Assembly: GCF_002854065.1 (NCBI RefSeq) | Contig: NZ_CP024147.1 | Reading direction: 5' to 3' (one strand) | Source: Escherichia coli | GTDB taxonomy: Bacteria > Pseudomonadota > Gammaproteobacteria > Enterobacterales > Enterobacteriaceae | Length of the DNA: 64,000 bases | Part shown: piece after piece, positions 9,001 through 12,000 of the stretch | How positions within the stretch are numbered: position 1 is the stretch's first letter | How the letters are laid out: every line of letters begins with the position of its first letter | Program-made: the position numbers

Positions 9001-12000
9001 ATTTGCCGACTTTGACGAACCTGGCCAGTAGTCGAATCGACCCAGAATGTGTTTTGCCACTGTTTTTCTGGCAACGTGGAAGTCACCTCTTCCTGCCAGA
9101 CATTACACAGCACATCGCGACCCGCAATATGCAGCGTCTCTAATCCAGCAAAGGAAAAAGTGGAACTCAGGGTCGCAGAGCGAAAATGGTTGTCTTCACT
9201 CCAGAGAATATCGCGCGTCCAGCGGCTGCCGTCTTTTATTGCCAGCGCGTTACGCAGAGGGTCCTGCCCGGAATTTGTCACTTCCAGCAGATTATTATTA
9301 AGTTTGACGGTCTTTAAAAGACGTCCATTATGGGTAACCAGCATGGCGTTATCCTGGGATAACCATTTGCTTTGTTCTTGTTCTATATATCCCAGTACCA
9401 CAAAGATTCGTTGCCCTTCATTAAGGCGTAAATACATCGTGGAATAAGGCAACGCCTGGATCTGCTGATCCGCTACGGTGATATCCTGATTATCGAAAAG
9501 GCTGGCGCGAAATGTATCGACCATACTTTGCTGGCTGTGCGTACATCCCGCAAGAAATAGTGCGAAAATCGATAAAATAAGAGGGCGCACCTTTAATCCT
9601 TGAAAGGTTAATTAAAAAAATGCAAATCTCTAAAGCCCGGTACGAATATCGCAACCGGGTATTATTTAACTTTAATTTCGACGCGTTTAAGCAGAATTAG
9701 CGCGTAGTGGACGTGGTGGTTGAGGTGTTATGAGAACCGCCATCGCCACTGTCATTTGCTGCAACTACTGCCAACGTCGCCACACCAACAGCCGTTGCCA
9801 CACCGACAACTGTCGCCGTGCCGACAGCGCCAGCAGCCACGCCACCAGTGGTAGCAGCCGTCGTGGTTGCACCGGTAGTGGTCGTTGTGGTGCCAGTAGT
9901 ACCCGTCGTTGCCTCGGTCCCGTTTGCTGCTTCAGGGGCAGCAAACGCAGCTGGCGTCGTCAACATGAAGGCCATAAGGATTGCAGAAAGCTTGTGTTTC
10001 ATAACTTTTCCTTTATTCATCGCATGGACAATACGTACGCTTGAGATCAGGATTGTCTACTTTGAGTATAACATCCTTGTGAAATCTCCCTTTCCTCATA
10101 CCACTTGCACTATATACAGCGGGTGAGAAAGGCGCGCAGAGGGAAATATAAGATTGTTAACGATTTCCCTCTTGAAATACGACTTGTGTGCATAAGATAA
10201 ATCTTAGAAAAATACAAATTAAAGATAAGAAAATTGTTAAGAAAGCTATTAACTATTGTTGGTAATATAGTTTCAAGTGGTACTATAACTGGCTGTTAAG
10301 TGGCATTTATAACTATTAGTTGCCGAGATATTCGGTTAAATGGATTAGTTTCCTGGTAAAAAGTAACTTGCGTTATAATGCATGGTGTTGACTATTGAAC
10401 TATTCCATTAAAACCAGTCAGCTTTAAACAAGCAGCGTCATATTAAGAGAGATAAACATTTGCCGCTGTTGGTCCTCGCAGGCCATTTACGCGACAAAAT
10501 TCCACGCGTAATCCTGGTATAAGCACTTCTGCGTCGCGGGGAGTGAATGCGGAAATATGGACCTGGACTTCTTTACGACCGTCGGAGGGGATAATGAATC
10601 CTTTGCCGCTTTTGCGATCAAAGGTTTTGACAATTCCTGTCATTTTACGGGACAAACAAATTCCTTACTGAAAATACTGCGCTGCACTATACGGGGTTAA
10701 TAAAATAAAGCCAGCGATATTTAAGACCGCCGGACGGCTAAAATAAAATTTGCTTAATCTCAATTATCATGCGTTAATAGCTGCGTCGGTTTGAAAGACA
10801 GACAGCATATAAAGTAGTTTACTAAAGCAGTTCTCATTATCAGGCATTATCCCCTTCTTTTGAGTCTCTCTCCTGAACACTAAGTAGTTTCTGTATTAAA
10901 GCCCTGTTTGCCGAAAGGCCCAAAATGAAGGAAGTAAAATATGTCTAATAAAATGACTGGTTTAGTAAAATGGTTTAACGCAGATAAAGGTTTTGGCTTT
11001 ATCACTCCTGATGATGGCAGCAAAGACGTTTTCGTCCATTTCACCGCCATCCAGAGCAATGAATTCCGCACGCTGAACGAAAATCAGAAAGTTGAATTTT
11101 CTATTGAGCAGGGGCAACGTGGCCCCGCGGCAGCGAACGTTGTTACGCTCTAAGGTTGCCGTTATTACTCAACATCTCCATTTCCGCTGTCCATGTTGTC
11201 ATGGTTCACAGTACCGTACATCGGCATTCGATGTGACGGAGCGAAACCCTTTGGGCGCTAAGTGTATTTTTTGTAAATCGACTATGATCACCTTTGATAA
11301 CGTCGCGCTGCAAATACGCACTGACCATGCGCCGCTGGATTTCACAAAATAATATCAGGCTCCCTCGTGGAGCCTTTTTTATATCTGCCTTATTTTTCTT
11401 CAACGCTGTATGTATAGTAAGCGATAACCTGTTGATTATTGAATCTTTCGGGGAGATGGCTTATAACATTTCTTACCTGACCAGGGTACCGGGAACCAAC
11501 ACCTTACTGGCGTGTTGCTGTCTTTCAAGACCAGACGAGGTTAACAGTGAATATTGAAGAGTTAAAAAAACAAGCCGAAACGGAAATCGCCGACTTTATC
11601 GCGCAAAAAATCGCCGAGCTGAACAAGAATACAGGGAAAGAAGTCTCTGAAATTCGCTTCACCGCACGAGAAAAAATGACCGGGCTTGAAAGTTATGATG
11701 TCAAAATCAAAATAATGTGATTTTGTGAACATCACCCGTGCGAGGTGATGTTCCGCTTGTTGCTAATTTAGTGACCAATCATTGGCGCTTGTGGAATTAA
11801 GCGTCGGTACAATTCATCCGGTACCGGGCTTTGCCATACTCCCGCATACATTGCGTAACCAATCACCGCAAACATAATCCCCAGAACCAGTAGCGTCATT
11901 AACCAGCCAGACAACGCAAAGGCTTTTTTATTTGCCGCAGGTTTTTGCAGTGAAAAGGTCAATGTTGAGGCTACCGGACATGACTCTACGCAAGTCATAC

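What the first reader, a model, noticed from the sequence alone, without database searches (positions are those of the whole stretch)
9697..10442. gfc upstream region has no IS1; GfcA carries a Thr-rich low-complexity tract
K-12 MG1655 carries an IS1 between gfcA and cspH that silences the gfc operon. Here the 420-bp AT-rich interval is uninterrupted, so the native promoter context is retained. GfcA contains a 23-residue Thr/Gly/Ala tract encoded by imperfect ACC/ACG/GGT repeats (about 9880-9950, minus strand), a substrate for repeat-number variation.
Basis: partly seen in the sequence, partly recalled or inferred. Interest (0 to 1): 0.3.

Follow-up and report, generated by a model that had tools for sequence, protein, structure and literature searches.

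The report
Ordinary uninterrupted gfc capsule-operon upstream region
This is the normal, IS-free upstream region and first gene (gfcA) of the E. coli group 4 capsule operon; both the missing K-12 IS1 and the threonine-rich tract are already described, so the finding is ordinary.

Summary
Window 9697-10002 (-) is gfcA (101 aa). Window 10003-10442 is the 440-bp, 34.8% GC spacer up to cspH. K-12 MG1655 has IS1D there, flanked by a 9-bp target duplication, GACAATACG. The window has that 9-mer once (10027-10035) and no IS1 homology in the spacer, which is collinear with EPEC E2348/69 and O157:H7. This is the common state: 414 of 3,717 complete genomes that carry the spacer have the K-12 junction, and the literature already places IS1 in the K-12 gfc promoter.

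The Thr/Gly/Ala tract is real: 24 residues, GfcA 31-54. It lies at 9841-9912, not 9880-9950. It is a poor slippage substrate, with a longest exact repeat of 8 bp. gfcA was 306 bp in 58 of 58 sampled genomes. Seven of 3,589 genomes carry in-frame variants (+18 bp or -15 bp).

"Promoter context retained" does not mean "expressed". O157:H7, the closest reference-strain allele compared, is reported to transcribe gfcA about 30-fold less than EPEC. In this window gfcE also carries a private 1-bp frameshift.

Side observations: at least 8 independent IS insertions hit this region in other strains, and the distal spacer is unusually divergent (7% against 0.7-2.5% in the flanks).

The parts
9697..10002 (-). 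gfcA, the first gene of the group 4 capsule operon. It encodes a 101-aa threonine-rich small protein with a signal-peptide-like N-terminus, a Thr/Gly/Ala tract, a Gly/Ala/Val-rich hydrophobic segment and a Ser/Thr-rich tail.
   Evidence: 99 of 101 residues are identical to K-12 GfcA b0987. The DNA is 100% identical to genes annotated 'threonine-rich inner membrane protein GfcA' in O157:H7 genomes. Synteny supports the assignment. There is no Pfam match.
9841..9912 (-). Thr/Gly/Ala-only tract, GfcA residues 31-54 (ATTGTTGTTTTTTGATTTAATTGG), encoded by mixed codons.
   Evidence: Tandem Repeats Finder reports a weak period-15 array at 9847-9882. The rare +18 bp and -15 bp in-frame variants map here.
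10003..10442 (-). The gfcA-cspH intergenic spacer: 440 bp, 34.8% GC, uninterrupted. It is presumed to hold the gfc promoter and regulatory region.
   Evidence: It is collinear with E2348/69, O157:H7 and K-12 once IS1 is removed. The equivalent EPEC fragment plus gfcA, cloned as 'gfcA and its promoter', complemented a gfcA deletion (PMC3853201).
10027..10035 (.). Empty IS1D target site: GACAATACG, a single copy, 25 bp upstream of the gfcA ATG.
   Evidence: In K-12 this 9-mer flanks IS1D on both sides. It occurs once in the window.
10443..10655 (-). cspH, the upstream neighbour, transcribed in the same direction as gfcA.
   Evidence: ORF, Pfam CSD match and annotation in XJ34 and K-12.
2289..9590 (-). 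The rest of the operon: gfcB, gfcC, gfcD, gfcE (split by a 1-bp deletion at about 5547), etp and etk.
   Evidence: Pfam matches to YjbF, GfcC_N and GfcC_C, YjbH, Poly_export with SLBB and Wza_C, LMWPc, and Wzz with GNVR. The frameshift is shown.

Best explanation
The region is the ordinary, never-interrupted 5' end of the E. coli group 4 capsule operon gfcABCDE-etp-etk. It comprises the AT-rich cspH-gfcA spacer, which is presumed to carry the operon's promoter and regulatory sites, and gfcA, a small threonine-rich envelope protein needed for capsule formation in EPEC.

In the K-12 lineage, IS1D inserted 25 bp upstream of the gfcA start codon. That pushes the whole native upstream region 777 bp away. 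This window shows the empty target site, as most E. coli do.

The Thr/Gly/Ala tract is a fixed compositional feature of GfcA. It is not a hypervariable repeat. Its length changes only rarely, by in-frame gain or loss of 15-18 bp at imperfect repeats.

Shown here: the anatomy, the empty site, collinearity with reference strains and the population frequencies. Inferred: that the promoter lies in this spacer. Whether the operon is expressed in this strain is unknown.
For: - K-12 has a 768-bp IS1D with a 9-bp duplication, GACAATACG. The window has one copy, at 10027-10035.
- The spacer aligns end to end with E2348/69 (93.9% identity), O157:H7 (96.1%) and IS1-less K-12 (93.4%), with a single 1-bp indel.
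- The K-12 junction is found in 414 genomes. The spacer is present in 3,717 genomes, and in 3,481 of them one match covers at least 80% of it.
- The literature already states that IS1 is in the K-12 gfc/ymc promoter and not in pathogenic strains (PMC2516531; PMC12428005).
- GfcA is described in the literature as a 101-aa, roughly 30% Thr protein (PMC8592465).
- gfcA was 306 bp in 58 of 58 sampled genomes. Only 7 of 3,589 genomes carry the +18 bp or -15 bp alleles.
- The longest exact direct repeat in gfcA is 8 bp.
- The operon context is confirmed by Pfam.
Against: - No promoter or transcription start could be located in the spacer.
- The spacer allele is rare: only 19 genomes are at least 99% identical to it. 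It differs from the functionally studied EPEC allele at about 27 positions.
- gfcE is frameshifted in this window, so the locus may not be functional as a whole.
- The genome census rests on BLAST summary counts and on samples of 60 rows, not on a full per-genome table.
Confidence: 0.9

Rival explanations
1. The spacer once carried an IS1, as in K-12, which later excised precisely. On this reading the site is a healed scar and not a never-occupied site.
For: Precise excision restores a single copy of the target, which is exactly what is seen at 10027-10035. The sequence alone therefore cannot exclude it. The strain does carry IS1 elsewhere in the window (49160-49927 and 56473-57240).
Against: The insertion at this exact site was seen only with the K-12 junction (414 genomes; the two such hits listed, ER1709 and Sel(aux), are not identified further). 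EPEC, O157:H7 and XJ34 all show the same empty site. The other IS1 insertions in this spacer lie at different positions. Never having been occupied is the simpler explanation.
Confidence: 0.02
2. The Thr/Gly/Ala tract is a contingency-type repeat whose copy number changes often and tunes or switches GfcA.
For: There are imperfect 15-nt and 18-nt periodicities. In-frame variants exist: an 18-bp tandem duplication (TTGTTT) in five genomes, at least two of them typed O169:H41 and one labelled an ETEC isolate, and a 15-bp deletion between ACCACAACG and ACCACGACG in CAVP773 and OY754834. The E. albertii-type orthologues are also 5 residues shorter at the same place.
Against: The longest exact repeat is 8 bp and synonymous codons are mixed. 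gfcA was 306 bp in 58 of 58 sampled genomes. K-12, EPEC, O157 and the window, which diverged long ago, share one tract length. The variants make up about 0.2% of genomes and the +18 bp genomes share one allele. No frame-shifting repeat is present.
Confidence: 0.03
3. Despite the intact upstream region, the capsule export system is inactive in this strain, because gfcE (the Wza-like channel) is broken by a 1-bp deletion in an A5 run.
For: GfcE is split into ORFs of 198 and 185 aa. The deletion is at window position about 5547 relative to XJ34. Pfam places Poly_export on the first piece and SLBB plus Wza_C on the second. None of 3,714 genomes shares the deletion.
Against: A single-base change in a homopolymer is also the typical sequencing or assembly error. 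It is the only 1-bp indel in 19 kb compared with XJ34, so neither reading is favoured.
Confidence: 0.45

Closest known systems
gfc (ymcDCBA-yccZ-etp-etk) group 4 capsule operon of EPEC O127:H6 E2348/69 and EHEC O157:H7
   Same: The gene order is the same and so are the neighbours (appA on one side, cspH on the other). gfcA is 306 bp with the same tract length. The upstream spacer is uninterrupted, 440 bp against 441 bp.
   Different: The spacer is 93.9% identical to EPEC and 96.1% to O157:H7. GfcA differs from EPEC at 2 residues and is identical to the O157:H7 protein. gfcE carries a private frameshift.
E. coli K-12 MG1655 gfcA-IS1D-cspH locus
   Same: The genes and flanks are the same. GfcA is 99 of 101 residues identical.
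   Different: K-12 has the 768-bp IS1D plus a 9-bp duplication 25 bp upstream of the gfcA ATG. The window has the empty site.
IS activation or inactivation of AT-rich, H-NS-type regulatory regions (for example bgl, flhDC)
   Same: An AT-rich upstream region is hit repeatedly by IS1 or IS5 in different strains, at 8 or more positions.
   Different: No evidence was obtained here for H-NS binding or for any expression effect at gfc. This resemblance comes from general knowledge and is only a lead.
YjbE of the paralogous yjbEFGH exopolysaccharide operon
   Same: Both are small proteins encoded first in a paralogous four-gene set (gfcABCD and yjbEFGH, PMC8592465). The Pfam families YjbF and YjbH match GfcB and GfcD.
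   Different: GfcA matches no Pfam family, and that includes any YjbE model in the library, at E no higher than 0.01. No direct sequence comparison with YjbE was run.

Membership tests
gfc group 4 capsule operon | Seven genes, gfcA-B-C-D-E-etp-etk, in one direction between appA and cspH. | tested here: met
   ORF map, Pfam matches and synteny with K-12, XJ34, E2348/69 and O157. gfcE is present but frameshifted.
gfc group 4 capsule operon | GfcA is a protein of about 101 aa with roughly 30% Thr and an N-terminal export signal. | tested here: met
   101 aa, 27.7% Thr, 99 of 101 residues identical to b0987. The signal peptide is inferred from the sequence (MKHK, a hydrophobic core, then AFA/AP) and was not predicted with a dedicated tool.
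gfc group 4 capsule operon | The operon is expressed and an O-antigen capsule is produced. | not testable with these tools
   This needs transcript or capsule assays. Published EPEC and EHEC data show that intact loci differ about 30-fold in gfcA transcript (PMC3853201).
IS1 insertion or IS1 remnant in the gfcA-cspH spacer | IS1 sequence (768 bp, or at least its terminal inverted repeats) lies between gfcA and cspH. | tested here: not met
   blastn with word size 7 finds no IS1D match in 9600-10700. The best match to the terminal repeat has 10 of 23 mismatches.
IS1 insertion or IS1 remnant in the gfcA-cspH spacer | An 8-9 bp direct duplication of the target. | tested here: not met
   GACAATACG occurs once, at 10027. 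The spacer is collinear with IS-free strains.
Hypermutable simple-sequence (contingency) repeat | Several perfect head-to-tail copies of a short unit. | tested here: not met
   The longest exact direct repeat is 8 bp. Tandem Repeats Finder gives 2.4 copies at 76% matches.
Hypermutable simple-sequence (contingency) repeat | Copy number differs among closely related isolates. | tested here: not met
   58 of 58 sampled genomes have a 306-bp gfcA. Only 7 of 3,589 genomes carry variants, and the five +18 bp genomes share one allele. This is a sample and a targeted search, not a full census.
Pfam YjbE family | A significant match to the family profile. | tested here: not met
   GfcA matches no Pfam family at E no higher than 0.01. 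The only NCBIfam match is weak and below cut-off (WGxxGxxG_fam, 17.3 bits against a cut-off of 35).

The most novel reading that the evidence does not exclude
The gfcA-cspH spacer may be a hotspot where E. coli lineages repeatedly rewire or switch off group 4 capsule expression.

- At least 8 independent IS events were seen in other strains. Seven are IS1 at different positions and in both orientations, and two of those come with deletions that remove gfcA. One is IS5.
- Split matches are about 4-6 times more frequent per base than in the neighbouring cspH-cspG spacer.
- The distal 320 bp of the spacer is 7% divergent between lineages, against 0.7-2.5% in the flanks.

Together with the published EPEC/EHEC expression difference, this could point to lineage-specific selection on capsule regulation. 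The window would then represent one rare regulatory allele.
Probability: 0.3. Interest if true: 0.35.

Novelty: already known. Interest (0 to 1): 0.12.

Why it matters
It matters little. The window only shows the normal state of a locus whose K-12 peculiarity (IS1D in the gfc promoter region) and whose Thr-rich first gene product are both in the literature.

The practical points are these:
- An intact upstream region does not predict capsule expression.
- This particular sequence carries a gfcE frameshift that should be checked before calling the locus functional.

The side observation could be worth a small population-genomic study of capsule regulation. It combines recurrent IS hits with high divergence in the distal spacer.

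Tried and rejected
- I looked for a sigma-70 promoter on the gfcA strand of the spacer, using the tool scan and a relaxed scan of my own. Only weak, non-distinctive matches turned up, so no promoter is assigned.
- No intrinsic terminator was found after cspH inside the spacer.
- An Rfam search of 9400-11400 found nothing in the spacer. It found only the cspA thermoregulator upstream of cspG and two sub-threshold hits.
- The perfect 10-bp inverted repeat at 10138-10172 folds only marginally better than shuffled sequence (z = -1.9). It is left as a note.
- Peleg et al. 2005, the original gfc operon paper, could not be retrieved. The statement about silencing therefore rests on papers that cite it.
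- The protein database search with GfcA returned mostly frameshifted or fused ORFs and few informative homologues. It was useful only for the 5-residue-shorter E. albertii-type alleles.
- Pfam and NCBIfam gave no family for GfcA.
- A full per-genome census of insertions and tract lengths is not possible with the summary output. The counts are BLAST summaries plus samples.

Full report
**What is there**

The minus strand of window 2289-10002 carries etk, etp, gfcE, gfcD, gfcC, gfcB and gfcA. cspH (10443-10655) lies upstream in the same orientation, and cspG lies beyond it. Pfam confirms the operon proteins: YjbF for GfcB, GfcC_N and GfcC_C, YjbH for GfcD, Poly_export with SLBB and Wza_C for GfcE, LMWPc for Etp, and Wzz with GNVR for Etk.

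The closest complete genome is bovine strain XJ34, at 99.7% identity over 19 kb. gfcA is annotated from the ATG at 10002, which has AAGGA 7-11 nt upstream, giving 306 bp and 101 aa. The spacer to the cspH stop codon is therefore 440 bp, or 422 bp from the upstream ATG. It is 34.8% GC, with a minimum of 29%.

**The IS1 question**

MG1655 has the 768-bp IS1D between gfcA and cspH. Aligning the window to K-12 gives two segments that overlap by 9 bp. The overlap is GACAATACG, the target duplication, at window 10027-10035, 25 bp upstream of the gfcA ATG. The window has this 9-mer once. Sensitive blastn with IS1D finds no similarity in 9600-10700, and nothing there resembles the IS1 terminal repeat.

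With IS1 and one duplicate copy removed, the K-12 spacer aligns end to end with the spacers of the window, EPEC E2348/69 and O157:H7. The only gap is a 1-bp indel in a T/C run near 10357. The site is therefore empty and there is no scar.

**How common the IS-free state is**

- The spacer is present in 3,717 of 5,426 complete E. coli genomes. Most of the others lack gfc, with cspH lying next to appA.
- The exact K-12 gfcA/IS1 junction is present in 414 genomes.
- The IS-free state is therefore the majority state.

The literature already covers this. Lacour et al. [quoted passage not shown] They add that etk is nevertheless expressed in K-12 under some conditions (PMC2516531). [quoted passage not shown] A genomic SELEX study lists an RpoD holoenzyme site facing gfcA in the gfcA-insA4 spacer (PMC3946193). 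"Silences" is therefore too strong a word.

**Is the promoter context retained?**

Structurally it is. Only 25 bp, holding the ribosome-binding site, separate the IS1D site from the ATG, so any native promoter must lie upstream of 10035.

In EPEC, a fragment running from the first base after cspH to the end of gfcA was cloned as "gfcA and its promoter". The primer gfcA5, TATGACGCTGCTTGTTTAAAACTG, matches the start of the spacer. This fragment restored capsule formation in a gfcA deletion mutant (PMC3853201).

I could not locate a promoter, however. The scan found no sigma-70-like site on the gfcA strand, and a relaxed scan gave only weak candidates.

Expression cannot be inferred from intactness alone:
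- EHEC O157:H7 has an equally intact spacer, yet is reported to give about 30-fold less gfcA transcript than EPEC and no capsule in the same medium.
- The window's spacer is closest to the O157:H7 allele (96.1%), against 93.9% for EPEC.
- gfcE in this window is split into ORFs of 198 and 185 aa by loss of one base in an A5 run, at about 5547.
- None of 3,714 genomes shares that deletion. It is either a private mutation or a homopolymer sequencing error.

**The Thr-rich tract**

GfcA is 27.7% Thr, 28 of 101 residues, with P about 4.5e-13 against a 5.4% background. The run made only of Thr, Gly and Ala is residues 31-54, ATTGTTGTTTTTTGATTTAATTGG. That is 24 residues, or 23 counted from the first Thr, at window 9841-9912. 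The feature is known: the RefSeq product name is "threonine-rich inner membrane protein GfcA", and Larson et al. 2021 describe a 101-aa protein with about 30% Thr that might be glycosylated (PMC8592465).

**Is the tract a substrate for length variation?**

The DNA is a poor one. Synonymous codons are mixed and the longest exact direct repeat in gfcA is 8 bp. Tandem Repeats Finder reports only 2.4 copies of a 15-nt unit at 76% matches.

The population data agree:
- In a sample spread evenly down the ranking of 3,607 genomes, all 58 full-length matches span exactly 306 bp.
- K-12, EPEC, O157:H7 and the window all have the same tract length.

Variation is not zero:
- The protein search turned up E. 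albertii-type orthologues, and a fused E. coli allele, that are 5 residues shorter at the same spot.
- A search with the shorter allele found two complete E. coli genomes with the 15-bp deletion (CAVP773 and OY754834). The deletion lies between ACCACAACG and ACCACGACG.
- The same search found five genomes with a perfect 18-bp tandem duplication that adds TTGTTT. At least two are typed O169:H41 and one is labelled an ETEC isolate.
- That makes 7 of 3,589 genomes. All variants are in frame and the five +18 bp genomes share one allele.

The tract therefore changes length occasionally over evolutionary time. It does not behave like a contingency repeat.

**Side observations about the spacer**

Insertions in other strains, mapped to window coordinates:

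| Strain | Element | Position in window coordinates |
|---|---|---|
| K-12 | IS1D | duplication 10027-10035 |
| STEC346 | IS1 | 9983-9991, inside gfcA codons 4-7 |
| 1EC213 | IS1, opposite orientation | 10050-10057 |
| FORC_031 | IS1 | 10196-10204 |
| Res13-Lact-PEB08-01 | IS1 | 10250-10258 |
| 2023CK-01482 and strain 361 | IS1 | with deletion of 9717-10200 |
| FAM21845 | IS1 | with deletion of 9652-10371 |
| CAVP773 | IS5-family element | homology to the window ends at 10074 |

- Split matches occur in 543 of 3,717 genomes, or about 129 of 3,303 once the K-12 type is removed. The neighbouring 285-bp cspH-cspG spacer shows 34 in 5,409 genomes. That is roughly a 4-6-fold excess per base.
- Among the window, K-12, EPEC and O157:H7, the distal spacer (10124-10442) has 7.0% mean pairwise divergence. 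The flanks show 0.7-2.5%, including the proximal 120 bp of the spacer itself.
- Only 19 genomes are at least 99% identical to the window's spacer allele.

These are leads and were not tested further.

**Verdict**

The finding describes the known wild-type state of a known locus, so its interest is low.

Noticed in passing
window 5540-5555 (gfcE, minus strand): A 1-bp deletion in an A5 run splits gfcE, the Wza-like export channel, into ORFs of 198 and 185 aa. None of 3,714 complete genomes shares it, so it is either a private pseudogenising mutation or a homopolymer sequencing error.
   Followed up: partly
window 9652-10442, compared with loci L001, L003-L009 and L017: The gfcA upstream region is hit repeatedly by IS elements in other strains. 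Seven distinct IS1 events occur at different positions and in both orientations, and two of them carry deletions that remove gfcA. There is also one IS5-family event. Split matches are about 4-6 times more frequent per base than in the adjacent cspH-cspG spacer.
   Followed up: partly
window 10124-10442: The distal two-thirds of the gfcA-cspH spacer shows 7.0% mean pairwise divergence among four lineages, against 0.7-2.5% in the flanking genes and spacers. The window's allele is rare: only 19 of 3,717 genomes are at least 99% identical to it.
   Followed up: partly
window 49160-49927 (-) and 56473-57240 (+): Two complete IS1 copies (99.6% identical to IS1D) lie in inverted orientation and flank pgaB-pgaA-dgcT. 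The first appears to sit in the 5' end of pgaC: the remaining ORF is 412 aa, against about 441 aa recalled for K-12 PgaC (not checked here). The PNAG (pga) operon would then be interrupted. No complete genome in the collection shows both insertions.
   Followed up: partly
window 10138-10172: A perfect 10-bp inverted repeat, AGAGGGAAAT-N15-ATTTCCCTCT, is centred on GTTAAC about 135-170 bp upstream of gfcA. One arm differs in other lineages: by one base in O157:H7 and E2348/69, and by three in K-12. The hairpin is about -12 kcal/mol (z = -1.9), so it is marginal. It could be a regulator site or a weak terminator.
   Followed up: partly
L002 (XJ34) 3749-3754, equivalent to window 4326-4344: The closest relative, XJ34, has a 14-bp deletion in etk that is annotated as a frameshift, while the window's etk is intact. 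The two near-identical strains have each damaged a different gene of the same operon.
   Followed up: no
window 9775-9828 (gfcA, minus strand): There are three imperfect 18-nt repeats (72-83% identity to the first copy). They encode the repeated GVATAV/GVATLA motif of the hydrophobic segment of GfcA.
   Followed up: no
window 10785-11207 (+): A strong Rfam match to the cspA thermoregulator (RF01766, 159.9 bits) covers the cspG 5' UTR and coding region.
   Followed up: no
L011 2441-5851 (GCA_013342395.1 contig): In one E. coli assembly gfcA is fused to the middle of gfcD by a deletion equivalent to window 7084-9737. The same allele also carries the 15-bp tract deletion. This is another decayed gfc locus.
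   Followed up: no
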